DNA of 64,000 nucleotides from Candidatus Poribacteria bacterium (GTDB taxonomy: Bacteria; Poribacteria; WGA-4E; WGA-3G), in assembly GCA_965204285.1 (NCBI GenBank), contig OZ241980.1:4269987-4333986 (forward strand), in the 5' to 3' direction. Of the stretch, positions 46,811 through 61,229 are shown piece after piece. The position numbers and the translations under genes were made by a program. The notes below the pieces were generated by a model. The model was not told where the DNA came from, searched no databases, and saw only the letters and a program-made list of their open reading frames with translations. The first letter of the stretch is position 1. Each line of letters opens with the position of its first letter.

Positions 46811-46853
46811 TACGAAAGTTTCGTGTTAGGTATTTCATTCAAGGAGAGTCAGT

Positions 46854-47759
46854 TTGGTTGATAAGTTAATCCAACTCATGATTGTGGGGACGCAGAAGTC
46901 GGGAACGTCTTCGTTACTGCATTATTTAGCACAACATCCTGATATCTATACGCATCCACAACCAGAGATGACTTTTTTCCTCCAAAATCATGAATATACA
47001 CGCGGGTACGAATCGGCATTTGCTAAATATTTCTCTCAATCTCCAGAAGATAAAAAACTTATTGCCAAAAATGTAATGGTGATGCATTCTCCAGAGATAA
47101 TGCAACGAATTCATGAACATAATCCGGAAATACATCTTGTTGTGCTACTGCGGGAACCTGTGGCACGCGCATACTCCGCCTATTGGTGGGCAAGACGCAG
47201 AGGTTGGGAAAATATCAAGACATTTGAAGAAGCGCTTGCTGCTGAGGAAACACGCCTTGAGGAAGATTGGTTCAAATGGCGGCAGTGTGGGTATCTCAAT
47301 AACAGCACTTATTATCCGCACGTCAAAAGTTTAATTGCACAATTTGGAGAGAGACACGTTCACTGCCTTTTAACCGGTGAATTACAAATAGATCCTCTGA
47401 CTGTTTGTCAACGCCTCTATAAACTTCTCAATATCGGCACCGATTTTGAACCTATCGTGGAAGAAAGACATAACCAAGCAGCAATGCCTCGATCTGAAAA
47501 GTTTAATTTCCTCTTTACACAGTTTCTATCATCTCATAATCCATTGAAACGTGCGATTCGTAAACTTGTGCCAGATGCTGCCGCTTACAAATTAAGAAAA
47601 AAAATCCTAAACTGGAACGACAAACCTTTCACGCCGCCGCCAATGAACCCGAAGACACGCGAAGAATTAAAAAATTATTTTACACCTTTTAATCAAGAAT
47701 TAGCAGAATTATTAGGACAAGATTTATCACATTGGAATGCCCATAAAGCAGTTACGTAA
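46854..47759 (+). CDS. sulfotransferase-family protein (PAPS-dependent)
   Basis: MIVGTQKSGTSSL (5'-PSB, PKxGTT-like). VVLLREPVARAYSAYWW (3'-PB RxxxRxxS-like). Confidence 0.65.
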   Translation: MVDKLIQLMIVGTQKSGTSSLLHYLAQHPDIYTHPQPEMTFFLQNHEYTRGYESAFAKYFSQSPEDKKLIAKNVMVMHSPEIMQRIHEHNPEIHLVVLLREPVARAYSAYWWARRRGWENIKTFEEALAAEETRLEEDWFKWRQCGYLNNSTYYPHVKSLIAQFGERHVHCLLTGELQIDPLTVCQRLYKLLNIGTDFEPIVEERHNQAAMPRSEKFNFLFTQFLSSHNPLKRAIRKLVPDAAAYKLRKKILNWNDKPFTPPPMNPKTREELKNYFTPFNQELAELLGQDLSHWNAHKAVT

Positions 47760-47803: not shown

Positions 47804-49153
47804 ATGTTCATAATCTATTTTCTCACAGGTTACGTCGCTTTTGAAGAGTTTGTACTGAAATTTCTGCCTGTCAGTGATGCTGTATATTCTTACCTAAGAT
47901 TCTTAGGAGAGCTACTTATCTATGCGGCATTTGCAAAACTTGTTATTCACAAACTCTACAAAGGAATACCTTTCGTCAAAACAGCGATAGATTTGCCAAT
48001 TATCGGTTTTTACGTTGTGGTATTTCTTTCAATGGTAATAAACCGTTCACCATTGATCGGAAGCATTTATAATATCCGTCCATTTGCGCGGTATATAGTC
48101 CTCTTTTATCTTATTGCTAATTCACCTTTGTCTGAAAAACGCATTGCAACTTTTCTACGGGTAATTTTATGCGTTGGTGTAGCACAACTCTTTGCAGGTA
48201 TGATTCAATGGGCTGGTGGTCGCGGAGCTTTTGACTTCTTCCTTCCGCGTGCGTCAACGCTTGAAGTCGGTGGGTTCACAAAAGAATACAGATTGCTTGA
48301 ACTCGGTCGAGAAATTGGAAGTATCTATGGCACTTTGGGGGATACGGTTATTTACGGGGTGTTCATGATTCTTATCCTCGTCATTTTTCTTTCACGCATA
48401 AGGCGGTTGGAGTATCTGAATTTACTTGGAATAGTCGTTCTGTTGATGTTCATTGCCCGTTCTTACTCACGCGCTGCTACTTTTTCCGCGATTCTTGCAT
48501 GTGCAGCATGGTTCTACTTTCAATACGGTTGGAAGAAAACACTCCGTTTATCATTAGCAATAATACTCGTCTTCGGAATTCTTTTGGCGATAGTGAATCC
48601 ATTTAGCTTGGAATACGTTAATCCGAGAAAAGCGAAAGTTGGTTTGGTTGGGAATGTAACAGGTGTATTTTCTGGTTCTTATGTTCGTATAGCACAAAAA
48701 CAGAGACTTGGTGCCTTAATTGGGAATGTGCCGACAGTACTCGCAAACAAACCGATTTTAGGATATGGTGCAGATCAGAACAGCACGATTGAAAAACTGA
48801 ATATGAGCAAACGTTCATTTCTTTTAAAAGTACTCAGTAAAAAAGGATTTAAAGATGTGTATTGGGTTGCTATTCTCTGTTTTTACGGCCTGTTAGGGTT
48901 GGGTTTATTCAGTTTAATATTTCTCCGTCTTTTTATCGCGGCATTAAGTCTTTACAAGCGCGCAGTTAGTAGATACGCTAAGGAGATCGCGATGATAATG
49001 CTTTGTCTTGTTACAGTAACTGTCTTTTTGCTCTTTTTTAATCGAACACTTGAATTTCGTGGCTATGGGTTCTACTTTTGGCTGTGCGCGGGACTGATGT
49101 TTGCCAGTGATGCTTCACTTAAAACCTATAAACCGCTAAGGATTACTTTATGA
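47804..49153 (+). CDS. Wzy/O-antigen-ligase-like polytopic membrane protein
   Basis: About 10-12 TM helices with a large periplasmic loop. Locus context. Family call tentative. Confidence 0.4.
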   Translation: MFIIYFLTGYVAFEEFVLKFLPVSDAVYSYLRFLGELLIYAAFAKLVIHKLYKGIPFVKTAIDLPIIGFYVVVFLSMVINRSPLIGSIYNIRPFARYIVLFYLIANSPLSEKRIATFLRVILCVGVAQLFAGMIQWAGGRGAFDFFLPRASTLEVGGFTKEYRLLELGREIGSIYGTLGDTVIYGVFMILILVIFLSRIRRLEYLNLLGIVVLLMFIARSYSRAATFSAILACAAWFYFQYGWKKTLRLSLAIILVFGILLAIVNPFSLEYVNPRKAKVGLVGNVTGVFSGSYVRIAQKQRLGALIGNVPTVLANKPILGYGADQNSTIEKLNMSKRSFLLKVLSKKGFKDVYWVAILCFYGLLGLGLFSLIFLRLFIAALSLYKRAVSRYAKEIAMIMLCLVTVTVFLLFFNRTLEFRGYGFYFWLCAGLMFASDASLKTYKPLRITL

Positions 49154-50772
49154 GATATGTTAACCAAGATCGAACTGAGAAACGGAAATTATTCTCATCA
49201 TTTACATTCTTATTTTCTATCATTTTAGTATTATGCCTGCTATTCTTAGTAATTCGTGGTTGTGAAAAAAAATCTCTAATTTCCAGAGGAGTACGCTTTG
49301 AGGTTGACACACAAGCAAAAACGTTTTTGAGAAAAGAACTTTACGGCTTTAATACAAACATGATAAGCGGAGATTATGGGTATCTTGATACAGATTTTTT
49401 TACCTTAACAAAGGCACTTCAACCGAAAACATTGAGATTCCCTGGTGGGACAGTCGGCAATTTCTATCATTGGAAAACCAAAGGTTTTATTGAAAGCGAA
49501 ATGGGGTCAACTCTATATCCTCAACTGAATAAACGAAACAGAGGGAATTACATTAGACTCCAAAAGCGGCGGAACGGTATTATTTCTTTTGATGATTTTA
49601 TGCAGTTGTGCCAAGAATTAAATATTACGCCTATTGTCGTTGTTAATCTGTGGACGGGTACTCCCGAAGAGAGTGCTGATTGGGTGCGTTATGCCAAAAC
49701 CAAAGGATACAAGATTACGCATTGGGAACTTGGCAATGAGTACTATCTTCCACATTATGCCAACAAATTCCGTACTGCAGAAATTTATATGAGAGAAGCC
49801 AAAAAACATGCATTAGCAATGAAAGCCGTTGACCCCAACATAAAAGTGTCTGTATGCGCAACTCCTATAGCTTTCCACAAAGATGGGTGGTTAATAAAAA
49901 CAGCACAACGTAAATGGGATAAAAAACTCGCTGAGAACACTTATCCTTTGACAAATAGCTGGTATGATGCCTACACTGTTCATGTTTATGCATACAAAGC
50001 AGTCCGGAAAACAGATATTGAGAATATGCGAGGCTACCTCTTTGGATGGATTCACTTTGGCATAGATGAAGCAATGGAGTACTATGAGAAATTGTTTCCT
50101 GATAAAGAGATGTGGGTAACGGAGTGGAACATCGCTAATCCTGCTAACCGGGTCGCTAACACACAACTACATGCCATGTATGTCGGCGATTTTTTTCTGA
50201 AATTGCTCAGTATACCAAACATAACACAAGCAAACTTTCACGTGATTACTGGTCCGGGCAAAGGATTTCCAGTTTTTTCGCGGATTACACCTGTATCAAA
50301 ACGCACCTTTTGGAAATATGGCGGGGAACCAGAATCGGATTATGGAGACACAATTCGCCGCACTGTCTACTTCCCTTTTCAATTAATTGGTGAAGCATTC
50401 GCAGAATCAGATACGCAGTTTGCTGTTTCACTACAAAATATGCCAATGCTTGAAGGACAATTAGAGTATAAAGGAAGGCAAATGTCCGCGGTTCAAGTTC
50501 AAGCAATCGGAAACATTGAAACCGTCTACATATTTGTCAGTAATCGCTCTGCAGACGAACTAACACCACAACTTGCTATTGACGGAAAACAGTTGAAAAA
50601 AGAAATTAACTATCGCTATATTGCAAATGAGAGTCTCACAGCGACCAATGGTGGCAATGCTGAAATGGAAGGATCCGGCGAAATTGAGGTGCAAATTCAG
50701 GAATGGACAGGAAATTCTGCAGAACTCACAATTCCTAAAAACAGTTTTGGTGTGATAGAGGTCAAAAAGTGA
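49150..50772 (+). CDS. clan GH-A glycoside hydrolase (GH5/GH30/GH51/GH79-like), membrane-anchored
   Basis: N-terminal TM anchor. RFPGGTVGNFYHW. Acid/base WELGNEYY. Candidate nucleophile region VTEWN. 4-nt start/stop overlaps on both sides. Confidence 0.5.
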   Translation: MRYVNQDRTEKRKLFSSFTFLFSIILVLCLLFLVIRGCEKKSLISRGVRFEVDTQAKTFLRKELYGFNTNMISGDYGYLDTDFFTLTKALQPKTLRFPGGTVGNFYHWKTKGFIESEMGSTLYPQLNKRNRGNYIRLQKRRNGIISFDDFMQLCQELNITPIVVVNLWTGTPEESADWVRYAKTKGYKITHWELGNEYYLPHYANKFRTAEIYMREAKKHALAMKAVDPNIKVSVCATPIAFHKDGWLIKTAQRKWDKKLAENTYPLTNSWYDAYTVHVYAYKAVRKTDIENMRGYLFGWIHFGIDEAMEYYEKLFPDKEMWVTEWNIANPANRVANTQLHAMYVGDFFLKLLSIPNITQANFHVITGPGKGFPVFSRITPVSKRTFWKYGGEPESDYGDTIRRTVYFPFQLIGEAFAESDTQFAVSLQNMPMLEGQLEYKGRQMSAVQVQAIGNIETVYIFVSNRSADELTPQLAIDGKQLKKEINYRYIANESLTATNGGNAEMEGSGEIEVQIQEWTGNSAELTIPKNSFGVIEVKK

Positions 50773-51824
50773 AATTGGATAAAATGCTTTTTGTTGTAGG
50801 GAATAGTCGAAGTGGAACAACAATGATGGGACGTATTTTAGGGAAACATTCTGATGTCTATACTTTTGGCGAACTCCACTTTTTTGGACAGTTATGGTCT
50901 CCTGCATTTTCTTCTGAATTACAAAAACAGAAAGCAGAAAAGTTGGCTTCGCAGCTATTCTGTATTCAACGAGAAGGATACCGGACACACGGCAACCCCA
51001 GTAGTTTTCTGGGAGAATCTCAGAACTTTCTCAATGAATTAACTGAATATCCTACAACACCTGACCGTCTTTTTTCAGCGTTCCTCCAATACGAGGCATC
51101 GCTAAATTGTAAAACGATCCCTTGCGACCAGACACCACGTAATGTGTTTTACATTGAAGACATCCTCCAATTTTATCCACAAGCAAAGATTATTAACATG
51201 ATTCGGGATCCGCGGGATGTACTCCTATCTCAAAAGCAAAAATGGAAACGCCGCTTTCTCGGTGGTAGTGATATGCCAAGAAAAGAGACGTTCCGTGATT
51301 GGATTAACTATCATCCTGTAACGATCAGCCGAATTTGGCATACTGCTGTTACTGCCGGAGATAAATTAGTTGATAGTGAACGAGTTATTTCAATTTACTT
51401 TGAAAAACTTCTTGCACATCCTGAAGCGACAGTCGCTGATGTTTGTGACTTTATAGGTATTGATTACGCTGCTTCAATGTTACAAGTGCCGCAAGTCGGT
51501 TCTTCTGTTAACACAGATAAACCCAATCAACTCGGCATAAATCCGACTCGCACACATAACTGGCACACCAATCACAAAAGTAAAAAAGATTCTGATCTCC
51601 CAACCGAAAGACGAGAATCCCTCAGTTCCACGGAAATTTACATATCCGAAAAAATAAACAGGACGCTGATGGAAAAACATAACTATATTCCTGTTTCAAC
51701 ACGTCCAAACATTTTTAGCTTAGTTGTTAATATCCTCTCATTTCCAATGAAATTAGCGGCAGCTTTCGTTTGTAACCTTGATAGAATGAAAAACATCCGT
51801 GAAACCTTAAAAAGACGTTTATAA
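50769..51824 (+). CDS. sulfotransferase-family protein (PAPS-dependent)
   Basis: VVGNSRSGTTMMGRIL and MIRDPRDVLLS. Confidence 0.65.
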   Translation: MKLDKMLFVVGNSRSGTTMMGRILGKHSDVYTFGELHFFGQLWSPAFSSELQKQKAEKLASQLFCIQREGYRTHGNPSSFLGESQNFLNELTEYPTTPDRLFSAFLQYEASLNCKTIPCDQTPRNVFYIEDILQFYPQAKIINMIRDPRDVLLSQKQKWKRRFLGGSDMPRKETFRDWINYHPVTISRIWHTAVTAGDKLVDSERVISIYFEKLLAHPEATVADVCDFIGIDYAASMLQVPQVGSSVNTDKPNQLGINPTRTHNWHTNHKSKKDSDLPTERRESLSSTEIYISEKINRTLMEKHNYIPVSTRPNIFSLVVNILSFPMKLAAAFVCNLDRMKNIRETLKRRL

Positions 51825-51850
51825 TTCATATATTGACCTGTACGTAGAAC

Positions 51851-52852
51851 ATGATTGCTCAAATTAATTCTGAATATATCACAACGCGTCCAACAAAAGC
51901 GCTAACTCGCCTCATCAGTTATACCTTTTTTGAAGGACGACCTGTGACAACAAAAGGTAGGTGGATAAATCCAGTTGTATTTTCTCTCCTGAAGAAGGCT
52001 GCGAGTAGTAGTAGACGATTCACACCAATTGAGAAACCTATCTTTATTCTTGGGACAGGGCGGAGTGGAACGACAATCTTAGGAATTGTGCTTTCTATGC
52101 ATAAAGATATCGGGTACCTAAATGAACCAAAAGCGATATGGCACCTCATCCATCCACATGAAGACATCATTGGGAATTACAGTCTAAGCCACGCTAAGTA
52201 CCGTCTCAACGCTGAAGATGCAACAGATGAAATGTGTCAACGTGCTGCCCAGATGTTTGGTGCTTATTTGTCATTAACCGGTTCAAAACGTGTCGTTGAT
52301 AAATATCCTGAACTAATCTTCAGGGTTGATTTCGTCCGCGCTCTATTCCCTGATGCGCGGTTTATTTTTCTTGTCCGAAATGGGTGGGATACATGCCGTT
52401 CAATTGCCAACTGGTCAACACGACTCGGTGTTCAAGTCAATGGTGAGAAACACGATTGGTGGGGAGTGGACGACCGTAAATGGAAACTAATAATAGATCA
52501 ACTGGTTACTACCGACGCAGACTTGAAAAACATTGTTGAGGATGTGAAAAATTTTGATCGACACTTAGACAAAGCATCTGTTGAATGGGTATTAACAATG
52601 CGCGAAGGGCTGCATCTAATGCAAAACTTACCTAACTGTACCTACGAAGTTCATTTTGAAAAATTAACATCAAAGCCCCAAGAAGTACTACCACCTCTAT
52701 GCGAATTCTGTGACTTGCTAACAGACAGCACGTTCCTAAATTATGCACAGCATAGCCTAAATCCGGTGCCGCCAAGAGAACCATTTGATTTACATCCGAA
52801 GATAGCACCGATTTTCTATGACACGATGTCAAGATTAGGGTATAATAACTAA
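51851..52852 (+). CDS. sulfotransferase-family protein (PAPS-dependent)
   Basis: ILGTGRSGTTILGIVL and FLVRNGWDTCRS. Confidence 0.6.
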   Translation: MIAQINSEYITTRPTKALTRLISYTFFEGRPVTTKGRWINPVVFSLLKKAASSSRRFTPIEKPIFILGTGRSGTTILGIVLSMHKDIGYLNEPKAIWHLIHPHEDIIGNYSLSHAKYRLNAEDATDEMCQRAAQMFGAYLSLTGSKRVVDKYPELIFRVDFVRALFPDARFIFLVRNGWDTCRSIANWSTRLGVQVNGEKHDWWGVDDRKWKLIIDQLVTTDADLKNIVEDVKNFDRHLDKASVEWVLTMREGLHLMQNLPNCTYEVHFEKLTSKPQEVLPPLCEFCDLLTDSTFLNYAQHSLNPVPPREPFDLHPKIAPIFYDTMSRLGYNN

Positions 52853-52927
52853 GTGGCATTGAAATAAGAGGAGGTTGTCAATGTGAATTATCCACACAAG
52901 TGTATAGTTCACTTGAAAAAGTATAAT

Positions 52928-53452
52928 ATGAGATTTTTGATTCTAATAATGCTTTGCGAATCAGCATTCCTTATCGGGTGCGACCAACGGATGGAACAGT
53001 CCATCATGCAGGTTGTAGTTCCCTCAGAGAGTTCTATAGAAAAAGCAAGATCAGCAATGAAAAAGGTTAATGAAAGACGGACAGAGGCCCAACAAAGGGC
53101 AGAAAAAACAGGTAACTTTTCCACCATACTTACTTCTTCTGAGGACATCTTCAGAGAAGAACTCGGCTTTAGAAAGGGGCTATGGGTTGATTTAGTGGAA
53201 ATATATCGCCAAGAGAATCTGGAAAATGCTACACTATTGGAAGTACTTGAGAACCTACAAGATGCCTTTGCTGAAAAATTAACGGAAGGCACCCTTGGCA
53301 TGTTCTACTTTCAATATATCAGTTCCTTTGATGAAATAATTATTGAATATCTCCGTCTGTCATTTGATTTTCCAGAAAAGAGTGAGAAAGATCTTCTTAC
53401 GCTATTCAGAGAATCTGTGAATGATAGAAAAATTTCCATTGTTTTTCCATAA
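52928..53452 (+). CDS. hypothetical lipoprotein
   Basis: MRFLILIMLCESAFLIGC lipobox. Helical. No motif. Confidence 0.4.
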   Translation: MRFLILIMLCESAFLIGCDQRMEQSIMQVVVPSESSIEKARSAMKKVNERRTEAQQRAEKTGNFSTILTSSEDIFREELGFRKGLWVDLVEIYRQENLENATLLEVLENLQDAFAEKLTEGTLGMFYFQYISSFDEIIIEYLRLSFDFPEKSEKDLLTLFRESVNDRKISIVFP

Positions 53453-53466
53453 GGTTCATTTACATT

Positions 53467-55548
53467 ATGCACGAAACATCTACTGTACAAACACATAAAC
53501 AAGCATCTGAGAAGCGTCCTTTTACCCGACGCGATTTTCTTTCAACCAGCCTAAAAGCCGGTGCAGCGGCTTTCACAACAGCACTTTTACCCAGATTCCG
53601 TGCCGATGCTGCAGGACAATACAATGTGTTGTTTATCATGGTTGACGACCTACGCCCTATGTTAGGCTGCTATGGGCACTCACAGATGCATACGCCTAAC
53701 ATTGATAGACTTGCCCAGCGAGGCACACTTTTCAACCGTGCCTATTGTCAATATCCGCTTTGTAGCCCATCTCGAACCTCTATGATAACTGGGTTGCGCC
53801 CAGAAACAACAGATGTCCTTAATAATTCAGATGATTTTCGGCAGAAATTGCCTGATGTAGTGACACTACCACAGAATTTTAAAAGATACGGATACCATAC
53901 ACAATCTGTCGGTAGAGTTGCCCATCTTCCAAGACTCCAAGATGATGAAAACTCATGGAGTGCTCCGTCATGGAGGCCTACATGGATACCTTTTGACATA
54001 GAGACAACTCCATCTTGGCAGGCACTTGACGTTGAAGACGACGAACTTAGGGATGGAAAAACTGCAAGGCGAGCCGTTCAGGTTTTAGAACAGATTAAAC
54101 ATCAACAATTCTTTCTGACTGTTGGATTTTATAAACCGCATCTTCCCCTGAAAGCACCACGGAAATATTTTGAGTTATACGATACGCAAGACTTTGACTT
54201 ACCCGCTTCTAATATGCCACCTATAGATGCGCCTGAAAGGGCACTCACTAATTGGAGTTCTATCAGAAGATATCAAGATCTACCTGCCGGAACAGAACCA
54301 CTTTCTGACGAGAAAACTTTGGAGTTAACTCAAGCATACGCGGCAGCTACAAGTTACATAGATGCACAAATTGGACGCGTATTAACAAAATTAGATGCTC
54401 TTGGTCTCACTGAAAAAACTGTCATCGTTTTCTGTGGAGATCATGGACATCATCTCGGTGAGCAGGGGATATGGGGCAAGCAAACTTTGTTTGAAGTTTC
54501 GCTCCGTTCACCTCTAATTGTGAGTGTTCCAGGGCAACAGACAGCAGAGACGAATGCCCTATCTGAACTTGTTGACATCTATCCAACGTTGTGTGATGCA
54601 TGTCAACTTCCAATACCTCCACAATTAGAAGGTCTGAGTCTGATGCCAATCATAGAGCAGCCGACACGTCCATGGAAAACCTCTGCCTTTAGTCAATTCG
54701 GTCAAGGAAACTCTATGCGGACAGAACAGTACCGATATACCGAATGGGGAAATAATGGGAGCCTTGGGCTGGAACTTTACGATTATTACACTGACCCGAA
54801 TGAGACAGTCAATATTGCACATCTTCCAGAAAACGAGGAACTTGTTGAACAACTCAGCGAAAAACTGCATGCTGGCTGGCAAGGAGCTCTATCTGATATA
54901 CCGGACCAATTCCATGTTCCACAAACGTTACCGTGGGATATAAACAATGACGGTGTTGTTGATTTCCAAGACCTTGTTTTGATCTCAAGTAATTTTGGTA
55001 CTGAGGCACCTGAAAATCCGAAAGTTGACGTGAATAGAGATGGTAATGTTAACATCATTGATTTGCTCATAGTTGCTGCACATCTCGGTGAATCTACCAA
55101 CACGGGGGCACCTGCAACACAGGCAGAGATTTTCCCAAAACACTTTAGTTTAGTGGATGAATGGCTCACAGAAGCACGTTTAGTGGATGATGGTTCAGAT
55201 GTTTTTAAACTGGGTATCGCTACCTTGGAAGGATTACTTAATATTGTAACTCCAGAAAAAACAGTGCTTTTACCGAACTTCCCGAATCCTTTTAATCCAG
55301 AGACTTGGATACCTTACGATTTAGCACAAGACACGGATGTTCACATCCATATCTTTAATCTGAAGGGCGAATCAATTCGTGAGTTACCACTTGGTTTCCA
55401 AACCGCTGGCACATATAGGTCTCAGGCGCAAGCCGCATATTGGGATGGGCGTAATTCTGAGGGTGAGCTTGTTGCAAATGGAGTTTATTTTTGTACACTC
55501 CACGCGGGACAAACACGAGGAACACGCAAAATGGTAATAAGAAAATAA
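53467..55548 (+). CDS. Tat-signal arylsulfatase-family (Cys-type, C-x-P-x-R) enzyme with C-terminal dockerin-like pair plus T9SS-type CTD
   Basis: TRRDFLSTSLKAGAAAF twin-arginine motif. FIMVDDLRP. Active-site CSPSRTSMITG (53761-53775). GDHGHHLGE. C-terminus DINNDGVVDFQD / DVNRDGNVNIID and NFPNPFNPETWIPYDL...GVYFCTL. Confidence 0.8.
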   Translation: MHETSTVQTHKQASEKRPFTRRDFLSTSLKAGAAAFTTALLPRFRADAAGQYNVLFIMVDDLRPMLGCYGHSQMHTPNIDRLAQRGTLFNRAYCQYPLCSPSRTSMITGLRPETTDVLNNSDDFRQKLPDVVTLPQNFKRYGYHTQSVGRVAHLPRLQDDENSWSAPSWRPTWIPFDIETTPSWQALDVEDDELRDGKTARRAVQVLEQIKHQQFFLTVGFYKPHLPLKAPRKYFELYDTQDFDLPASNMPPIDAPERALTNWSSIRRYQDLPAGTEPLSDEKTLELTQAYAAATSYIDAQIGRVLTKLDALGLTEKTVIVFCGDHGHHLGEQGIWGKQTLFEVSLRSPLIVSVPGQQTAETNALSELVDIYPTLCDACQLPIPPQLEGLSLMPIIEQPTRPWKTSAFSQFGQGNSMRTEQYRYTEWGNNGSLGLELYDYYTDPNETVNIAHLPENEELVEQLSEKLHAGWQGALSDIPDQFHVPQTLPWDINNDGVVDFQDLVLISSNFGTEAPENPKVDVNRDGNVNIIDLLIVAAHLGESTNTGAPATQAEIFPKHFSLVDEWLTEARLVDDGSDVFKLGIATLEGLLNIVTPEKTVLLPNFPNPFNPETWIPYDLAQDTDVHIHIFNLKGESIRELPLGFQTAGTYRSQAQAAYWDGRNSEGELVANGVYFCTLHAGQTRGTRKMVIRK

Positions 55549-55559
55549 GGGAACGGTTT

Positions 55560-57596
55560 ATGAAAAACGATAAGCAACAGAAGACATCTTTTCAACCATT
55601 TACCCGACGGGATTTCCTATCAACAACTTTGAAAGCAGGTGCTGCCGCTTTCACGACAGGACTTTTGCCCAAACTCAAAGCAGACGCTAATTGTCAATAC
55701 AATGTGTTGTTTATCATGGCTGACGACCTACGCCCCCTACTTGGCTGCTACGGATATCCAGAGATGCATACGCCTAACATTGATAGACTTGCCCAGCGAG
55801 GCACACTCTTCAACCGTGCCTATTGCCAATTTCCTGTGTGTAACGCATCCCGGACCTCAATGCTCACTGGGTTAAGACCTGAGACAACAAGGGTGTTTTC
55901 CAATAGAGATAGATTTCGGGAGACGTTACCAAACGCTCTGACGCTCCCACAGCACTTTAAAGCATACGGATATCATACTCAATCGATTGGTAAAATTTTT
56001 CATAATCTTGCAATGCAAGATGACACCTATTCGTGGAGTGTTCCCTCGTGGGGACTGCCGATAACGAATCAGGGACCGTCGCATCCTTCTTGGAAAGCAT
56101 TTGAAGTTGAAGATAGTGAACTTAGTAGTGGTAAAACAGCAAAGCGCGCGATTGAGGTATTGGACGAAATTCAAGATACACAGTTTTTTCTCTCTGTTGG
56201 TTTTCACACACCACATTTACCTTTTTATGCCCCAAAGAGGTATTACGATTTATACAAAAACGAAAACTTCAGTTTTACATCTTCTTCCATCTACCCAAAT
56301 ACGAATATGAGGTTATTCCGAGATATCCCTGATGAAGGCCCTCTCACGGACGCAAAAGCGTTAGAATTAATTCGGGCGTACGCTGCATCAATTAGTTATA
56401 TGGACGCACAAATCGGACGTGTTTTAGACAGGATAGACGCACTCAGCTTGGCAGAAAAAACAGTTGTCATTTTTGCAGGTGACCACGGTTATCATCTTGG
56501 AGAGCATGGCAAATGGGGAAAGAATTATCTTTTTGAAGTTTCCCTCCGATCACCACTGATTGTCAGTGTTCCAGGACAGACATATCAGGGCGTTAAAACG
56601 GATGTCCTCACAGAACTTGTTGACATCTATCCAACATTGTGTGATGCATGTCAACTTCCAATACCTTCACAATTAGAAGGTTTGAGTCTGATGCCCGTCA
56701 TTGATGAACCGACACGTACGTGGAAAACTGCTGCTTTTAGCCAAGTAGGAAGGTCAAACGGGAATTCTATGCGGACAGAACAGTATCGATACACCGAGTG
56801 GGGAAACAATGGAAGACAAGGACAGGAACTTTACGATTATCATACTGACCCGAATGAGACAGTCAATATCGCGAATCTACCAGAAAACAAAGAACTTGTA
56901 GCACACCTCAGAGAACGGCTCCATGCTGGGTGGCAAGCGGCTTTGCCAGATGTACAAGAGCAAGTGCGTGTTCCGCAAACGTTACCATGGGATATAAACA
57001 ACGACGGTGTTGTAGATATTCAGGATCTGATCTTGGTTTCAAACAGTTTTGGGATGGAGACTCCAGAACATACGAAAGCAGATATAAATAAAGATGGAAA
57101 CGTTGATATAATAGATTTATTATATGTCGCATCGCATTTCGGGGAATCTTGCATTGCATCAGCATCCTCGGCATCAGTTTCACAAGAACATGTCAATAGC
57201 ATTTCTGAATGGTTGACTGAAGCACGCCAAGCAGATGACGGTTCTGACGTTTTTCGGCACGGAATTGCGAACTTAGAAGCGCTGTTTAACACCGTAACCC
57301 CTAAAAAAACAACCCTTCTTCCGAATTTTCCAAATCCTTTCAATCCAGAAACTTGGATACCTTATGATTTGGCGAGAGATACAGATGTCAACATTGAGAT
57401 CTATAATCTGAAGGGAGAAATTATTAGAAAGCTAAATATGGGATTACAAACTGCTGGCACCTATCGGAGTAAAACAAATGCAGCACATTGGGATGGACGT
57501 AATTCGGGGGGTGAACTTGTTGCAAGTGGCGTCTATTTTTATTCTCTTAACACTGGTATGGTAAAAGCTATCCGCCGAATGACAATTCTTAAATAA
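55560..57596 (+). CDS. Tat-signal sulfatase-family enzyme with variant C-N-A-S-R active-site motif and C-terminal dockerin-like pair plus T9SS-type CTD
   Basis: TRRDFLSTTLKAGAAAF. FIMADDLRP. CNASRTSMLTG (55839-55853; Ala in place of the canonical Pro). GDHGYHLGE. Same C-terminal module. Confidence 0.8.
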   Translation: MKNDKQQKTSFQPFTRRDFLSTTLKAGAAAFTTGLLPKLKADANCQYNVLFIMADDLRPLLGCYGYPEMHTPNIDRLAQRGTLFNRAYCQFPVCNASRTSMLTGLRPETTRVFSNRDRFRETLPNALTLPQHFKAYGYHTQSIGKIFHNLAMQDDTYSWSVPSWGLPITNQGPSHPSWKAFEVEDSELSSGKTAKRAIEVLDEIQDTQFFLSVGFHTPHLPFYAPKRYYDLYKNENFSFTSSSIYPNTNMRLFRDIPDEGPLTDAKALELIRAYAASISYMDAQIGRVLDRIDALSLAEKTVVIFAGDHGYHLGEHGKWGKNYLFEVSLRSPLIVSVPGQTYQGVKTDVLTELVDIYPTLCDACQLPIPSQLEGLSLMPVIDEPTRTWKTAAFSQVGRSNGNSMRTEQYRYTEWGNNGRQGQELYDYHTDPNETVNIANLPENKELVAHLRERLHAGWQAALPDVQEQVRVPQTLPWDINNDGVVDIQDLILVSNSFGMETPEHTKADINKDGNVDIIDLLYVASHFGESCIASASSASVSQEHVNSISEWLTEARQADDGSDVFRHGIANLEALFNTVTPKKTTLLPNFPNPFNPETWIPYDLARDTDVNIEIYNLKGEIIRKLNMGLQTAGTYRSKTNAAHWDGRNSGGELVASGVYFYSLNTGMVKAIRRMTILK

Positions 57597-57633
57597 AATT
57601 TATTTCATTTTGTTCCTTGGAGGCAGAAAATAC

Positions 57634-59262
57634 ATGTTTGGACGAATATTACTAATATTCTACATAGTTGCAAATTTCTGGTATTTCCCACGCGCCGACG
57701 CTGCTTCGCTAATAAACGTCCCCCTTAATCCAGATATATCTGATTTTAATACTGAAACCTACCGCTTTATTCATCGTTTACTTAATAAACGTGTGGTGTC
57801 GGGTGTGACGCGAGGTTCTTTACCGTTTACGCGAAAACAGGTTGCATCTTTGCTGGTAGAGGTGTCTCAAAAACTTGATAGAGGTGAACTCACTTTAAGC
57901 GTTAACGACCAGAAGCGCTTAAAGGACTTATCAGCCTTTTACTCAGAGGCTGGAACGCAAACCCCTCCCAATCGACGATTACACTTAGGCACACTTACTG
58001 ACAACTCTACCTCTCGTATCTCCTTTGATTTACGGGTTGGACACCAAGAGATCACACGTTTAGTTGATAACGTGTCCGAAGTGCCAAATGTTGAAGGGAA
58101 TATGCACGTTACAACGCTGTATCCACATCTATATGGGCAGTTTGAGGATAGTTTTGCTTTTTCAGGAGATATAGCATATAGGTCATTGTATGGAGACTTT
58201 TTTGACGATGTCTTTGCTGACGAATCGAAGCATAGACAATTGGAAGGAAAACTTAAAAACAGAATTGCTATCAATAGTTATCTTAAGTTTAATATGCCTT
58301 GGTTTGAATTGCAATTTGGACAAGATAATCTCCAATGGGGGCCTGGTTATCATGGAAATTTACTGATTTCCTCAGACCCATTAGCTATTGATATGGTAAA
58401 ATTTCAAACTAACTACAAAACTATATCGTTTACTGCATTCACTGGTGTATTAGAGGACATGTCAGAGGACATCAATGAGAAATATATTTCAGGTCACAGA
58501 ATTGAAGGATATTATTGGAATAGGTTTGGTTTTGGAATATCTGAGGTAGTTATCTATGGCAATCGGTTTGAACCTGGATATTTGAATCCTGTTAACATAT
58601 ATTTCATAAACGAACAGACTATATCACGGTCAGACAGTCGGGCTCCTGGTAGTGGTGATAATGTATTTGTCAGTGTTGATTTTCGGTTACGTCCTGTAGA
58701 TAATTTTGAGATATATGGTGAGTTGATGGTTGACGATGGGAATCCTGCTGTCAGTTTTAAACATTGGGATACGAAGTTTGGTATCCTCGGTGGGATTTAT
58801 CTTACGGACCCCTTTGGACTAACAGACACTGATTTTTACGCAGAATACACTTTTATAAACCAATACGCCTATACACACGTCAATCCTGCAAACGTATATA
58901 AACACTTTACCACGCCAATTGGACATCATATCGGTTCTGATGCAGATAATCTATGGATTGAACTGCGTAGACGTTTTACAGATAAGCTTGAAACCGTTTT
59001 TGGGTACGAACTTGAACGCCACGGTGAAGGAGACATAGACAAAAATCATCTACCTGGTGCACCAAAAGATGATGTGTGGACACCATTATCTGGAATCACG
59101 GAAAGTGAGCATCGTTTAAAAATCGGTTTTAATTGGGTTGCTATTGGTCATTATTCATTTTACGGTGAGTGGGCAAGGATTTGGAGGCGAAATCTCGAAA
59201 ATCGTCAAGATGTACATGAAACTGGAAATGAAATCCAAGCAAAAGCACTTTATAGATTTTAA
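57634..59262 (+). CDS. outer-membrane beta-barrel protein, possibly capsule-assembly Wzi-like
   Basis: Signal peptide. N-terminal helical segment (ETYRFIHRLLNKRVVSG...TRKQVASLL). Alternating amphipathic strands. C-terminal ...ALYRF (terminal Phe). Wzi assignment is from memory of the family and locus context. Confidence 0.35.
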   Translation: MFGRILLIFYIVANFWYFPRADAASLINVPLNPDISDFNTETYRFIHRLLNKRVVSGVTRGSLPFTRKQVASLLVEVSQKLDRGELTLSVNDQKRLKDLSAFYSEAGTQTPPNRRLHLGTLTDNSTSRISFDLRVGHQEITRLVDNVSEVPNVEGNMHVTTLYPHLYGQFEDSFAFSGDIAYRSLYGDFFDDVFADESKHRQLEGKLKNRIAINSYLKFNMPWFELQFGQDNLQWGPGYHGNLLISSDPLAIDMVKFQTNYKTISFTAFTGVLEDMSEDINEKYISGHRIEGYYWNRFGFGISEVVIYGNRFEPGYLNPVNIYFINEQTISRSDSRAPGSGDNVFVSVDFRLRPVDNFEIYGELMVDDGNPAVSFKHWDTKFGILGGIYLTDPFGLTDTDFYAEYTFINQYAYTHVNPANVYKHFTTPIGHHIGSDADNLWIELRRRFTDKLETVFGYELERHGEGDIDKNHLPGAPKDDVWTPLSGITESEHRLKIGFNWVAIGHYSFYGEWARIWRRNLENRQDVHETGNEIQAKALYRF

Positions 59263-59416: not shown

Positions 59417-60538
59417 ATGAAAATTCGCGTATTGGGCATTCGTGGTCTTCCAGCAACTTATAGTGGTTTGGAGACCATCATGGGTGAACTTGCACCGCGC
59501 TGGGTGGAAGCGGGACATGAAGTCACTGTCTATTGCCGAAAAGCAGTTTTTAAAGAGAGACCACGCGAATGGAAAGGTATCAAGTTAGTCTATTTACCCA
59601 GCATTGAACATAAAGTATTTAGCACTCTCAGCCATAGTTTTTTGGCAACTTTACACGCTTCGTTTTCCCCTTCTGATGCTATTCTTGTATGGAATGCTGG
59701 TAATGGTCCCTTTGGTTGGTTTTTCCGTATTGCTGGTAAAAGTGCTGTTATCAACGTTGATGGTATGGAATGGCTTCGTCCAAAGTGGAAAGGTATAGGT
59801 GCTGTCTACTTCAAGTGGGCAGCAAAGATGGCTACTTCCGCGTTTCCGATTGTAATTACCGATGCCGAAGAAATGAAAAGACTCTACCTTGAAGAATTAG
59901 GCGCTGAAACGACATATATTGCTTACGGAGCAAACATTGAGCCATCTGAGCATCCTGAGATCCTTGACAATTATGGGCTTGAATCACGGAATTTCTATCT
60001 TATCGCGAGTCGCCTCGTTCCCGATAATAATGCAGACCTGATTTTGGAAGCATTTGTTAACTCAAATAGCGAGAAAAAACTTGCTATAGCTGGTGGGGCA
60101 GACTATAAAGGTAACAAACTTGAAAATGAATTTTTAGATAAATTGAAAAGTATAGCCAATGAAAACGTGATATTTTTGGGACATATTGATAGTTCAGAAC
60201 ATATAAAGGAACTTCACCATCACTGCTTTGCCTACATTCATGGACACCAATTCGGTGGCATCAATCCATCCATTTTGAAGGCGTTAGGATATTCTAACTG
60301 CATTTTGGCACTCAATACACCTTTCAACCATGAAGTCCTGGAGGGCGGTACTTACGGTGTGCTCTTTGACAAGAATTCAGAAGCGCTCAAAGTCGAAATT
60401 GAGACGTTAGAACAGAATCCAGGGAAGGTTGACGACTTCCGTCGGCGTGCTCCTGAACAGATACGAAAACGATTCAATTGGGACCATATTGCAGAACAAT
60501 ATATTGACGTTTTTGAAAAACTACAGAAGAAAAAATGA
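59417..60538 (+). CDS. GT4-type glycosyltransferase with DUF1972-like N-terminus
   Basis: MKIRVLGIRGLPATYSGLETIMGELAPR (DUF1972-like). C-terminal GT-B domain. Confidence 0.55.
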   Translation: MKIRVLGIRGLPATYSGLETIMGELAPRWVEAGHEVTVYCRKAVFKERPREWKGIKLVYLPSIEHKVFSTLSHSFLATLHASFSPSDAILVWNAGNGPFGWFFRIAGKSAVINVDGMEWLRPKWKGIGAVYFKWAAKMATSAFPIVITDAEEMKRLYLEELGAETTYIAYGANIEPSEHPEILDNYGLESRNFYLIASRLVPDNNADLILEAFVNSNSEKKLAIAGGADYKGNKLENEFLDKLKSIANENVIFLGHIDSSEHIKELHHHCFAYIHGHQFGGINPSILKALGYSNCILALNTPFNHEVLEGGTYGVLFDKNSEALKVEIETLEQNPGKVDDFRRRAPEQIRKRFNWDHIAEQYIDVFEKLQKKK

Positions 60539-60569
60539 AATCTACTAATTTCGGGTAGGATAAAGGATA

Positions 60570-61229
60570 ATGGCACATTTGCCAATAAAATTTAGCGTTT
60601 CCAAACCTGACTTTGCATATATGAACGACACAGCACAGCCTTCAGTTGAAAGACTTTCTTCCTTCTACGCAAAGCGAGGAAAATATTTGCTTGATTTTGT
60701 GGCAGCGTTTTTCTTGATACTTATATTTGCTCCACTAATGATTCTCATTTCAATACTGATTAAACTCTCCTCACGGGGACCAATTTTCTTCTCGCATAAA
60801 CGGGTTGGGAAAAATAATAAACTTTTTGTCATTCACAAGTTCAGAAGCCTCCATATTGATACGCCCTCCTATTCAGAAAAACCCGATTCAACAGAAGATG
60901 TTCGTATCACTTCGGTTGGTAAATGGATTCGTAAAACGAGTTTAGACGAATTGCCTCAGTTATTTAACGTGATTAAGGGTGAAATGAGTCTCGTGGGGCC
61001 TCGTCCAGAAATGCCATTCCTTGCTGAGAATTACGAAGAATGGGAAAATCAACGCCATCTCGTGCGCCCTGGAATGACGGGACTTTGGCAGTTGAGCCCG
61101 CGCCGCCGTGGGTCAATCCGTGAAGGAATTCCTGTTGATTTGGAATATATTGAGAATTTGTCCTTATGGAACGACTTCAAAATATTGCTACGGACGTTCA
61201 AAGTCTTTTGGGACGACAACACCTATTAA
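60570..61229 (+). CDS. polyprenyl-phosphate sugar phosphotransferase (bacterial sugar transferase, WbaP/WcaJ C-terminal-domain type); initiating enzyme
   Basis: Signature LDELPQLFNVIKGEMSLVGPRPE. Single N-terminal TM. Confidence 0.8.
   Translation: MAHLPIKFSVSKPDFAYMNDTAQPSVERLSSFYAKRGKYLLDFVAAFFLILIFAPLMILISILIKLSSRGPIFFSHKRVGKNNKLFVIHKFRSLHIDTPSYSEKPDSTEDVRITSVGKWIRKTSLDELPQLFNVIKGEMSLVGPRPEMPFLAENYEEWENQRHLVRPGMTGLWQLSPRRRGSIREGIPVDLEYIENLSLWNDFKILLRTFKVFWDDNTY

What the first reader, a model, noticed from the sequence alone, without database searches (positions are those of the whole stretch)
53467..57596. Sulfatases carry both a twin-arginine (Tat) signal and a T9SS-type CTD; the second has a C-N-A-S-R motif
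Both sulfatases begin with the conserved TRRDFLS(T)xLKAGAAAF Tat motif, which implies export after cytoplasmic folding. Yet they end in the CTD sorting module. T9SS cargo is classically Sec-dependent, so Tat plus CTD is an atypical route.

The active-site cysteine motif is CSPSR in the first gene (53761-53775) but CNASR in the second (55839-55853). Ala replaces the Pro that formylglycine-generating enzyme (FGE) normally requires. To my knowledge C/S-x-A-x-R is tolerated by anaerobic sulfatase-maturating radical-SAM enzymes (anSME) but not classic FGE. This hints at anSME-type maturation and possibly anaerobic lifestyle.
Basis: partly seen in the sequence, partly recalled or inferred. Interest (0 to 1): 0.6.

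Follow-up and report, generated by a model that had tools for sequence, protein, structure and literature searches.

The report
Tat-exported sulfatases inside sulfated-capsule locus

Summary
Two tandem paralogues (65% identical) each carry a Tat-type signal (TRRDFLS), an S1 sulfatase domain, a type I dockerin and a FlgD-Ig/T9SS-type-A-like C-terminal domain (CTD). The motifs CSPSR and CNASR lie at the stated coordinates.

The organism is a Candidatus Poribacteria bacterium. The architecture is conserved in all 120 listed homologues. In 1.6 Mb of Poribacterial DNA, 34 of 35 sulfatases with this CTD have the RR motif, against 3 of 119 other CTD proteins. Sulfatases without a CTD have no signal peptide. 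So Tat goes with the sulfatase domain, which fits cytoplasmic folding and maturation.

"T9SS" is not established. The CTD scores sit at the model thresholds. Poribacteria lie outside the phyla known to have T9SS, and no T9SS gene was found here or in a 2014 study.

CxAxR is a known variant. Pro and Ala swapped about 14 times among these orthologues, so the maturase tolerates both. No maturase gene could be located, and an anaerobic lifestyle does not follow.

New here: the sulfatases form a variable cassette (0–5 copies) at a fixed slot in a conserved Wzx/Wzy polysaccharide locus with four sulfotransferases and Wzi.

The parts
53467..55548 (+). Sulfatase 1 (693 aa): Tat signal + S1 sulfatase + dockerin + CTD
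   Evidence: ORF. Pfam Sulfatase 8e-46, SGSH_C, Dockerin_1, FlgD_ig/Por_Secre_tail.
53467..53610 (+). Sulfatase 1 Tat-type signal peptide (RR at 53527-53532; predicted A-D-A cleavage site at 53602-53610)
   Evidence: TIGR01409 scores 16.3 bits against a cut-off of 16.7. Motif and hydrophobicity analysis.
53761..53775 (+). Sulfatase 1 formylglycine motif C-S-P-S-R
53908..53925 (+). Sulfatase 1 'VGRVAH': Arg replaces the active-site Lys that most orthologues keep (GK[IV])
   Evidence: Alignment of 155 orthologues.
54937..55086 (+). Sulfatase 1 type I dockerin (two Ca-binding repeats)
   Evidence: Pfam PF00404, 40.9 bits against 22.9. Repeat motifs.
55279..55545 (+). Sulfatase 1 C-terminal beta-sandwich domain (FlgD-Ig / T9SS type A-like)
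   Evidence: PF13860 24.4 and PF18962 20.6 (both below the gathering score), TIGR04183 18.8 against 23. Fold model.
55560..57596 (+). Sulfatase 2 (678 aa from ATG 55560; the listed TTG ORF starts at 55491 and overlaps gene 1)
   Evidence: 100% identical to P0001. Pfam Sulfatase 5e-47.
55560..55688 (+). Sulfatase 2 Tat-type signal peptide (RR at 55605-55610; A-D-A at 55680-55688)
   Evidence: TIGR01409 scores 17.3 bits against a cut-off of 16.7..
55839..55853 (+). Sulfatase 2 formylglycine motif C-N-A-S-R (Ala in place of Pro)
   Evidence: The same motif occurs in 22 of 120 homologues.
56991..57134 (+). Sulfatase 2 type I dockerin
   Evidence: PF00404, 36.2 bits against 22.9.
57327..57593 (+). 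Sulfatase 2 C-terminal beta-sandwich domain
   Evidence: PF13860 29.3 (above gathering score 27) and TIGR04183 25.6 (above 23). AlphaFold model and Foldseek search.
43421..45762 (+). NAD-dependent sugar epimerase/dehydratase and MurJ/Wzx-type flippase
   Evidence: Pfam. Syntenic in other Poribacteria.
45830..47759 (+). Sulfotransferases 1 and 2
   Evidence: Pfam Sulfotransfer_1 and Sulfotransfer_3. Synteny.
47804..50772 (+). Wzy-like polymerase (weak hit) and a clan GH-A glycoside hydrolase (GH51/GH79-like)
   Evidence: Pfam. PDB search. Synteny.
50769..52852 (+). Sulfotransferases 3 and 4
   Evidence: Pfam Sulfotransfer_3, 1e-29 and 2e-24. Synteny.
52883..53452 (+). Small conserved putative lipoprotein just upstream of the sulfatases; no family match
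   Evidence: No Pfam or NCBIfam hit. Orthologues in L003, L006, L007 and L081.
57610..59262 (+). Wzi-type outer-membrane capsule assembly protein, directly downstream
   Evidence: Pfam PF14052, 6e-27. Synteny.
59417..61229 (+). GT4 glycosyltransferase and initiating sugar-phosphate transferase (Bac_transf)
   Evidence: Pfam. 82-88% identical orthologues in the same position.
32673..43408 (+). Four further dockerin+CTD proteins with Sec-type hydrophobic leaders (three LRR proteins, one FG-GAP/ASPIC), upstream in the same extended locus
   Evidence: Pfam. N-termini. Syntenic LRR-CTD genes in L081 and L082.

Best explanation
These are two tandem paralogues of a Poribacteria-wide family of formylglycine-dependent (S1, iduronate-2-sulfatase-like) sulfatases.

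Proposed mechanism:
1. Inferred: the active-site Cys is converted to formylglycine and the enzyme folds in the cytoplasm.
2. Predicted from sequence: the Tat signal then exports the folded enzyme across the inner membrane. This is why Tat signals accompany the sulfatase domain and no other cargo carrying the same tail.
3. Inferred: the C-terminal dockerin-linker-CTD module, which Poribacteria attach to many secreted proteins, takes the enzyme to or through the outer membrane and holds it at the cell surface. The machinery is unknown and may or may not be a T9SS.
4. Inferred from conserved gene order: at the surface the enzymes remove sulfate from a glycan. The most likely substrate is the sulfated capsule or exopolysaccharide made by the locus that contains them (four sulfotransferases, Wzx, Wzy, Wzi, glycosyltransferases). 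They would then be accessory sulfation-editing or trimming enzymes rather than purely nutritional ones.

The C-N-A-S-R motif is a functionally tolerated variant of C-x-P-x-R. It shows only that the organism's maturase accepts both forms.
For: Architecture and family:
- Domain hits.
- The closest solved relatives are arylsulfatase 6HHM (E 4e-77) and human iduronate-2-sulfatase, which is subfamily S1_7.

Organism: the named homologues are Candidatus Poribacteria bacterium, and most of the 80 loci are titled Candidatus or uncultured Poribacteria, with the rest 'uncultured bacterium' MAGs.

Tat:
- TIGR01409 at threshold.
- RR invariant in 120/120 homologues, a weak h-region, a basic c-region and an AxA site.
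- A TatA gene lies next to the orthologous cluster in L008.

Tat tracks the sulfatase domain:
- 34/35 against 3/119, p = 2e-29.
- The four sampled sulfatases without a CTD (L008 is N-terminally truncated and uninformative) show no signal peptide.

Locus:
- The order epimerase, flippase, ST, ST, Wzy, GH, ST, ST, [sulfatases], Wzi, GT4, PGT is conserved in at least 11 fetched loci (L002-L004, L006-L009, L011-L014), each from a different MAG. L001 shows only sulfatase followed by Wzi.
- The extended locus recurs in L081 and L082.
- All genes are on one strand with gaps of at most about 155 bp, and there is no excess of terminators.

Ala variant is functional and near-neutral:
- 22/120 homologues have it, spread over the tree with about 14 Pro/Ala changes.
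- All other catalytic motifs are intact.
Against: - No maturase (anSME or catalytic FGE) and no outer-membrane translocon gene was found. Steps 1 and 3 therefore rest on inference.
- A close relative (L082) has the same locus with no sulfatase at all. The sulfatases are therefore dispensable for making the polymer, and the slot could simply be a permissive insertion site.
- The characterised S1_7 members in hand (iduronate-2-sulfatase, a kappa-carrageenan sulfatase) are catabolic enzymes.
- Dockerin and the sulfatase site both bind Ca2+, which is scarce in the cytoplasm. Full folding before Tat transport is therefore not self-evident (my inference).
- The CTD resembles FlgD Ig domains at least as well as bona fide T9SS CTDs.
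Confidence: 0.6

Rival explanations
1. One reading: these are Tat-dependent cargo of a genuine type IX secretion system, gene 2 is matured by a radical-SAM anSME, and this points to an anaerobic lifestyle.
For: - Gene 2's CTD passes TIGR04183 (25.6 against 23).
- The fold model matches the CTDs of PorZ, PorU, RemA and NucA at TM about 0.5.
- T9SS moves folded proteins, so Tat delivery is mechanistically possible.
- The literature assigns CXAXR to anSME.
- Frequent Pro/Ala swapping fits a maturase that accepts both.
Against: - Poribacteria lie outside the FCB superphylum. No Por/T9SS structural genes were found in Poribacterial single-cell genomes.
- None were found in the 64 kb window or in 1.6 Mb of related loci. 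FGE-domain lipoproteins score 113 bits against the 350-bit GldK cut-off, and the largest ORFs are not SprA.
- Pfam PF18962 is below its gathering score in all six CTD proteins of the window.
- No rSAM+SPASM ORF was found.
- Lifestyle cannot be read from maturase type: strict anaerobes carry many FGE-domain genes plus one anSME.
Confidence: 0.2
2. The twin arginines are incidental and the proteins use Sec like other CTD cargo.
For: - Gene 1 falls 0.4 bits short of the TIGR01409 cut-off.
- No dedicated predictor (SignalP 6, TatP) could be run.
Against: - RR, F at +2 and L at +3 are invariant or nearly so across 120 homologues.
- The h-region is far less hydrophobic than in the four Sec-type neighbours, and the c-region is basic.
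- The motif is present in 34/35 sulfatase cargo and essentially absent from 119 other cargo with the same tail.
Confidence: 0.07
3. The C-terminal domain is not an export signal. It is a structural or adhesive Ig-like domain. The enzymes stay periplasmic or are held by the dockerin alone.
For: - The best sequence matches of the CTD profile in the PDB are FlgD Ig-like domains (E 5e-5), while the PorU CTD scores only E about 1.
- The fold is a generic beta-sandwich.
- No translocon was identified.
Against: - The domain is always strictly C-terminal and ends in a conserved basic residue.
- It occurs on 168 ORFs of very different function in the sampled loci.
- It reaches the type A sorting-domain threshold in gene 2. 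This is the pattern of a sorting signal rather than a functional domain.
Confidence: 0.25
4. The sulfatases are ordinary catabolic enzymes for host (sponge matrix) or algal sulfated glycans. Their position inside the biosynthesis locus has no functional meaning.
For: - The characterised S1_7 members in hand are catabolic.
- Copy number varies from 0 to 5, and L082 lacks them.
- L005 and L010 carry orthologues in other contexts.
Against: - The cassette occupies the same slot, between sulfotransferase 4 and Wzi, in at least 11 fetched loci from different MAGs, on the same strand and tightly packed.
- The locus also carries its own glycoside hydrolase, as many exopolysaccharide loci do.
Confidence: 0.3
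5. Gene 2 is an inactive pseudo-enzyme because Ala replaces the Pro needed for maturation.
For: FGE is described as acting on CXPXR.
Against: - CNASR is kept in 22 homologues down to about 66% identity.
- Cys, Arg, the T-G dipeptide, the DD and DHG metal sites and GK are all intact.
- Ala is the standard alternative residue in S1 sulfatases.
Confidence: 0.04

Closest known systems
S1 formylglycine-dependent sulfatases, subfamily S1_7 (human iduronate-2-sulfatase; bacterial arylsulfatase PDB 6HHM)
   Same: Same catalytic domain, with the C-x-[PA]-x-R-x(4)-TG signature and the metal and sulfate-binding residues. These are the best PDB matches (E 4e-77 and 4e-57).
   Different: These proteins add a Tat leader, a dockerin and a CTD. 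Sulfatase 1 has Arg in place of a conserved active-site Lys. The subfamily assignment rests on nearest characterised neighbours, not on SulfAtlas models.
T9SS type A C-terminal sorting domain cargo (TIGR04183 / PF18962) of Bacteroidota and the FCB superphylum
   Same: A strictly C-terminal beta-sandwich of about 90 aa on many unrelated secreted proteins. Gene 2 passes the TIGR04183 cut-off, and the fold model overlaps known CTDs.
   Different: The leader is Tat, not Sec. The host phylum is not known to have a T9SS. Scores sit at or below thresholds. The CTD is always preceded by a dockerin and a conserved helical linker.
Tat-dependent substrates of two-step secretion, e.g. Pseudomonas aeruginosa phospholipases PlcH and PlcN
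   Same: A folded enzyme is exported by Tat and then released across the outer membrane by a separate system. PlcH and PlcN are listed as Tat substrates and secreted factors in PMC6085387. That the separate system is the type II pathway is from my memory of Voulhoux et al. 2001.
   Different: The outer-membrane step there is the type II system. Here it is an unidentified CTD-dependent route.
CXAXR Cys-type sulfatases matured by anaerobic sulfatase-maturating enzymes
   Same: Gene 2 has the C-x-A-x-R signature that the literature assigns to anSME (PMC2459300).
   Different: No anSME gene was found. Sister orthologues and the neighbouring paralogue have C-x-P-x-R, so one maturase must serve both forms. 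From memory, bacterial FGEs have been reported to be more permissive than the strict rule (Rush and Bertozzi 2008; not checked here).
Bacterial sulfated exopolysaccharide loci (synechan xss cluster of Synechocystis; sulfated capsules of Vibrio and Cobetia; Pontiella)
   Same: Wzx/Wzy-type polysaccharide genes combined with sulfotransferases.
   Different: In the synechan paper, 'sulfatase' appears only in the reference list. A cassette of exported sulfatases inside such a locus was not found in the literature I could search.

Membership tests
S1 (formylglycine-dependent) sulfatase | Sulfatase catalytic domain (Pfam PF00884) above the curated cut-off | tested here: met
   157.1 and 161.1 bits against a cut-off of 25.
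S1 (formylglycine-dependent) sulfatase | Signature C/S-x-P/A-x-R followed by the T-G dipeptide, plus metal-binding DD and D-H and the catalytic Lys/His | tested here: met
   CSPSRTSMITG and CNASRTSMLTG, DDLR, GDHG and GK present. Sulfatase 1 has GR in place of GK.
S1 (formylglycine-dependent) sulfatase | Cys actually converted to formylglycine; sulfate ester hydrolysis | not testable with these tools
   Needs mass spectrometry and an enzyme assay.
SulfAtlas subfamily S1_7 | Clusters with iduronate-2-sulfatase-type sequences | tested here: inconclusive
   The best PDB hits are 6HHM and human IDS, and IDS is S1_7. No SulfAtlas profile or phylogeny was run.
Tat (twin-arginine) substrate | Consensus S/T-R-R-x-F-L-K in the n-region | tested here: met
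   F-T-R-R-D-F-L-S in both genes. RR and F are invariant in 120/120 homologues.
Tat (twin-arginine) substrate | Score at or above the curated cut-off of the Tat signal model TIGR01409 | tested here: inconclusive
   Gene 2 scores 17.3 and gene 1 scores 16.3, against a cut-off of 16.7.
Tat (twin-arginine) substrate | Weakly hydrophobic h-region, basic c-region, A-x-A cleavage site | tested here: met
   Kyte-Doolittle 12-aa maximum of 1.15 in sulfatase 2's leader (sulfatase 1's leader is nearly identical), against 2.4-3.3 in neighbouring Sec-type leaders. K/R occur before (A/V)-x-A.
Tat (twin-arginine) substrate | Tat machinery encoded by the organism | tested here: inconclusive
   A TatA gene was found in related locus L008. 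This organism's own genome beyond the window could not be read.
T9SS type A CTD cargo | C-terminal sorting domain above the curated cut-off (TIGR04183 / PF18962) | tested here: inconclusive
   TIGR04183 gives 25.6 (pass) for gene 2 and 18.8 (fail) for gene 1, against 23. PF18962 gives 20.6-24.0 against 27 in all six CTD proteins.
T9SS type A CTD cargo | Ig-like beta-sandwich fold of the CTD | tested here: met
   The AlphaFold model (pLDDT 76.5) has six beta-strands. Foldseek hits include PorZ, PorU, RemA and NucA CTDs at TM about 0.5, but FlgD and other Ig folds score equally well.
T9SS type A CTD cargo | N-terminal Sec signal peptide | tested here: not met
   The leaders are Tat-type. The four other CTD proteins in the window do have Sec-type leaders.
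T9SS type A CTD cargo | T9SS machinery (PorK/L/M/N, SprA/Sov, PorV, PorU) in the same organism | tested here: inconclusive
   - None in the window.
- None recognised in 1.6 Mb of Poribacterial loci.
- None found in single-cell genomes by Kamke 2014.
- The whole genome could not be scanned.
anSME-matured sulfatase | C/S-x-A-x-R or S-x-P-x-R signature | tested here: met
   CNASR in gene 2. Gene 1 has CSPSR, which suits either maturase.
anSME-matured sulfatase | Radical-SAM/SPASM maturase gene in the genome | not testable with these tools
   None in the window and none by motif scan in 1.6 Mb.
Type I dockerin | Pfam PF00404 above the gathering score, with two Ca-binding repeats | tested here: met
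   40.9 and 36.2 bits against 22.9. Two D-x-N-x-D-G-x-V repeats in each.
Wzx/Wzy-dependent surface polysaccharide locus | Initiating phosphoglycosyl transferase, flippase, polymerase, glycosyltransferases, outer-membrane component | tested here: met
   Bac_transf 1e-62, MurJ-type flippase 1e-48, GT4, Wzi 6e-27. Wzy_C scores only 25.4 against 31.7. No Wza or Wzc was seen in the window.

The most novel reading that the evidence does not exclude
Poribacteria have no detectable T9SS, yet they use the dockerin-linker-CTD module as the address label of an undescribed outer-membrane export and anchoring route. That route accepts folded cargo delivered by either Sec or Tat. The Tat-delivered sulfatase cassette would be a surface sulfation editor that remodels the cell's own sulfated capsule, a bacterial counterpart of the animal extracellular Sulf enzymes. 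That anionic polymer could also be what CTD proteins are tethered to, by analogy with A-LPS in Porphyromonas. This would explain why both CTD-cargo cassettes (LRR proteins and sulfatases) are embedded in the same polysaccharide locus.
Probability: 0.15. Interest if true: 0.8.

Novelty: new variant of a known kind. Interest (0 to 1): 0.45.

Why it matters
Poribacteria are dominant, uncultured sponge symbionts, and their many sulfatases are usually read as tools for digesting host matrix. Three points would matter if confirmed.

1. An entire class of CTD-tagged surface enzymes is fed by Tat rather than Sec. This would extend the accepted Sec-only picture for CTD cargo. It also fits a simple rule: sulfatases must be matured in the cytoplasm.

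2. The open question from 2014, how Poribacteria export TIGR04183-like proteins without Por genes, can now be addressed. Conserved cargo sets and complete genomes are available.

3. Exported sulfatases sit inside a sulfotransferase-rich capsule locus. This suggests the symbiont makes and then edits a sulfated, glycosaminoglycan-like coat, which bears on host mimicry and recognition.

The CxAxR point adds nothing new by itself.

Tried and rejected
- **Exact-sequence look-up** of sulfatase 1 and of P0001 found nothing, so the source genome could not be walked.
- **Maturase search.** No radical-SAM/SPASM or FGE-domain gene is in the window (Pfam on about 45 ORFs). Motif scans of 1.57 Mb of Poribacterial loci gave no anSME-like ORF. 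The only FGE-domain ORFs were three non-catalytic ones without the catalytic Cys pair, two of them lipoproteins. NCBIfam places them far below the GldK, EgtB and PvdO cut-offs. One true radical-SAM ORF (L057) does not look like an anSME.
- **T9SS search.** The largest non-CTD ORFs of the loci are an LRR protein and a NACHT/SMEK protein, not SprA. The TPR/PD40 protein at 19406-20791 is TolB-like, not PorE.
- **Literature.** I found no paper describing Tat-dependent T9SS cargo among 36 that hold both terms (only a few were read). None links Poribacteria with sulfatase maturation, and none among the listed hits links Poribacteria with sulfotransferases. Kamke 2013 (PMC3834845) is not held.
- **Promoter and terminator scan** of the cluster gave fewer sites than shuffled sequence and was uninformative.
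- **Rejected ideas.**
  - A lipobox at the signal cleavage site: D-A-N-C does not fit.
  - A sequencing error as the source of Ala: CNASR is shared by the 80-89% identical homologues P0002-P0004.
  - Adjacency of the cargo genes as an accident of this genome: L081 and L082 show the same layout.

Full report
**1. What is there**

The region holds two same-strand ORFs.
- Gene 1 is 53467-55548 (693 aa).
- Gene 2 is listed from a TTG at 55491. That start would overlap gene 1. The ATG at 55560 gives a 678-aa product that is 100% identical to database protein P0001, so I use 55560-57596.
- CSPSR lies at 53761-53775 and CNASR at 55839-55853, exactly as reported.

Both proteins have the same five parts:
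- a leader containing FTRRDFLST(S/T)LKAGAAAFTT;
- a Sulfatase domain (Pfam E about 1e-46) with an SGSH_C extension;
- a type I dockerin with two Ca-binding repeats;
- a conserved linker;
- a C-terminal domain of about 90 aa that begins NPFNPETWIPY.

The two proteins are 65% identical overall, and their leaders are almost identical.

**2. Whose genes these are**

The named homologues are annotated Candidatus Poribacteria bacterium. P0001 sits on a 5.08 Mb contig. A scan of one genome per species returned 80 loci. Most are titled Candidatus or uncultured Poribacteria, and the rest are 'uncultured bacterium' MAGs. Poribacteria are sponge-associated. They lie outside both the PVC and the FCB groupings (PMC3909097).

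**3. The Tat signal**

No dedicated predictor was available, so I used four independent tests.
- The curated Tat model TIGR01409 gives 17.3 bits for gene 2 and 16.3 for gene 1, against a cut-off of 16.7. The four other CTD proteins of the window give nothing.
- The motif fits S/T-R-R-x-F-L. In 120 homologues RR and F are invariant, L is present in 114, and the whole h-region is nearly fixed.
- The h-region is weakly hydrophobic. Its Kyte-Doolittle 12-residue maximum is about 1.2, against 2.4-3.3 for the Sec-type leaders next door. The c-region carries K/R before an (A/V)-x-A site.
- A canonical TatA gene lies a few kb from the orthologous cluster in L008.

I regard Tat targeting as well supported but unproven.

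**4. Tat goes with the sulfatase, not with the tail**

In the window plus 80 loci (1.57 Mb), 168 ORFs end in the NPFNP-type CTD.
- Among ORFs not cut by a locus edge, 34 of 35 with a sulfatase signature have the RR motif.
- Only 3 of 119 without the signature have it, and those are poor matches (Fisher p = 2e-29).
- The four sampled sulfatases that lack a CTD and have a complete N-terminus start directly with the catalytic domain and have no signal peptide.

In this sample, then, Poribacterial sulfatases are either cytoplasmic or Tat-exported. None use Sec. The simplest reading is that they must fold and be matured in the cytoplasm. Both known maturases act there in bacteria (established knowledge of FGE and anSME), so Tat is the only workable way out. 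This part is inference.

**5. The C-terminal domain**

- Scores sit at the thresholds. TIGR04183 gives 25.6 for gene 2 and 18.8 for gene 1, against 23. Pfam Por_Secre_tail is below its gathering score in all six CTD proteins of the window. FlgD_ig is above it in four of the six.
- A profile of the six CTDs finds FlgD Ig domains best in the PDB (E 5e-5). The PorU CTD scores only E about 1.
- An AlphaFold model (pLDDT 76.5) is a beta-sandwich. Foldseek lists FlgD, PorZ, PorU and the RemA, NucA and mirolase CTDs, all at TM about 0.45-0.55.

The domain is therefore compatible with a type A sorting domain, but this is not diagnostic.

The machinery is the real problem.
- Kamke et al. 2014 noted many TIGR04183-like domains in Poribacteria and found no Por structural genes. 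They left the export route open.
- I found none in the window.
- FGE-domain lipoproteins in L010 score 113 bits against a 350-bit GldK cut-off.
- The biggest ORFs are not SprA.
- The whole genome could not be scanned.

"T9SS-type CTD" should therefore be read as "T9SS-like tail, machinery unknown". Reviews state that T9SS cargo uses Sec. I found no report of Tat-dependent CTD cargo. The nearest precedent is the pair of Tat-exported secreted phospholipases of Pseudomonas. That they leave by the type II pathway is from memory.

**6. C-N-A-S-R**

FGE acts on CXPXR, and anSME acts on SXPXR and CXAXR (PMC2459300). But the variant is ordinary.
- In SulfAtlas, Pro is conserved in 87% of S1 sulfatases and is mainly replaced by Ala.
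- Among the 120 closest homologues the motifs are CNPSR 55, CHPSR 42, CNASR 22 and CSPSR 1.
- On a neighbour-joining tree of 155 orthologues the Ala forms are scattered. About 14 Pro/Ala changes are needed, often between nearest neighbours. This is a rough parsimony count on a distance tree.
- The change is a single nucleotide, CCA to GCA.
- All other catalytic motifs of gene 2 are intact.

The substitution is therefore close to neutral, which means the organism's maturase accepts both forms. That favours an anSME-like or a permissive enzyme. It says nothing specific about gene 2 and nothing about oxygen. Strictly anaerobic Kiritimatiellales carry many FGE-domain genes plus one anSME.

No maturase gene was found in the window or by motif in the 1.57 Mb sample. 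That sample is too small to count as evidence of absence.

**7. Where the genes sit**

This is the most informative result, and the finding did not mention it. From 43421 to 61229 every gene is on the + strand, with gaps of at most about 155 bp. The order is:
1. sugar epimerase/dehydratase
2. MurJ/Wzx-type flippase
3. sulfotransferase
4. sulfotransferase
5. Wzy-like protein
6. clan GH-A glycoside hydrolase
7. sulfotransferase
8. sulfotransferase
9. small lipoprotein
10. the two sulfatases
11. Wzi
12. GT4 glycosyltransferase
13. initiating sugar-phosphate transferase

The same order, with 60-88% identical proteins, recurs in at least 11 fetched loci, each from a different MAG. L001 shows only a sulfatase followed by Wzi.

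Only the number of sulfatases changes:
- one in L002-L004;
- two here and in L013 and L014;
- three in L007, L008 and L012;
- four in L006 and L011;
- five in L009;
- none in L082, a close relative in which sulfotransferase 4 is followed directly by Wzi.

Upstream, the extended locus is also conserved. It runs beta-helix protein, GT4, lamin-tail-domain protein, then a variable set of Sec-type LRR proteins carrying the same dockerin-CTD tail (window 29322-43408).

The locus looks like a Wzx/Wzy pathway for a sulfated surface polysaccharide. It has two variable cassettes of CTD-tagged proteins. One cassette is the Tat-sulfatase array.

**8. Most likely function**

The closest solved relatives are arylsulfatase 6HHM and human iduronate-2-sulfatase, which is subfamily S1_7. 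That subfamily removes sulfate from uronic-acid or other sugar residues.

Given the fixed slot in a sulfotransferase-rich locus that also carries its own glycoside hydrolase, I favour accessory enzymes that trim or edit the sulfation of the cell's own capsule. The zero-copy variant shows they are not needed to make the polymer.

Ordinary catabolism of host or algal glycans remains a serious rival, which I put at about 0.3.

**9. Comparison and novelty**

- The catalytic domains are new members of a known family.
- CxAxR is already known.
- The combination of a Tat leader with a T9SS-like CTD is conserved across a phylum and restricted to sulfatase cargo. I could not find it described. It is a new variant of known parts.
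- A sulfatase cassette inside a sulfated-polysaccharide biosynthesis locus was also not found in the literature I could search.

**10. Verdict**

Interest is moderate at 0.45. It would rise if a genome-wide scan confirmed the absence of T9SS genes, or if the sulfatases proved to act on the locus's own product.

Noticed in passing
window 43421-61229 (also L002-L014, L081, L082): Conserved Wzx/Wzy-type polysaccharide locus with four sulfotransferases, a GH-A hydrolase, Wzi, GT4 and an initiating transferase. The sulfatase array is a variable cassette (0-5 copies) between sulfotransferase 4 and Wzi.
   Followed up: yes
window 32673-43408: Three tandem LRR proteins and one FG-GAP/ASPIC protein carry the same dockerin-linker-CTD tail but have strongly hydrophobic Sec-type leaders. 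LRR-CTD genes occupy the same upstream position in L081 and L082.
   Followed up: partly
window 53908-53925: Sulfatase 1 and its closest orthologues (L002, L013, L014, P0102) have Arg where most family members keep an active-site Lys (VGRVAH against IGKIFH). This may mark a different specificity.
   Followed up: partly
L082 18582-20996: A close relative (epimerase 89% identical) has the same locus with no sulfatase gene. Sulfotransferase 4 is followed directly by Wzi.
   Followed up: partly
L010 14355-15782; L017 383-1825; L054 17054-18478: Other Poribacterial S1 sulfatases lacking the CTD start directly with the catalytic domain and have no signal peptide. They appear to be cytoplasmic.
   Followed up: partly
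L010 18175-19059 and 19466-20305; L060 (minus strand, 337-aa ORF): FGE-sulfatase-domain proteins (the two in L010 are lipoproteins) without the catalytic Cys pair. They are far below the GldK, EgtB and PvdO cut-offs, and their function is unknown.
   Followed up: partly
L008, about 13312-13581 on the plus strand (gene on the minus strand): A canonical TatA gene (…VVFGPKRLPEMGKSIGKAIREFK…) lies a few kb from the orthologous sulfatase cluster.
   Followed up: no
window 25239-29264: Hen1 methyltransferase and Pnkp (kinase, phosphatase, ligase): a bacterial RNA repair cassette.
   Followed up: no
window 2183-5993: A B12-binding corrinoid protein, a RACo-type reductive activator with a 2Fe-2S domain, and a homocysteine S-methyltransferase-family protein. 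Together they look like a corrinoid-dependent methyl transfer system.
   Followed up: no
window 10066-17613 (minus strand): A run of envelope-related genes: a DUF6785/DUF6784 membrane protein, a POTRA/Omp85-like protein, a BatA-VWA protein, and a transglutaminase-like protein with DUF3108.
   Followed up: no
window 52883-53452: A small conserved putative lipoprotein (lipobox L-I-G-C) with no family match. In the loci where I found an orthologue (L003, L006, L007, L081) it lies just upstream of the sulfatase cassette, and it is absent from the sulfatase-free locus L082.
   Followed up: partly
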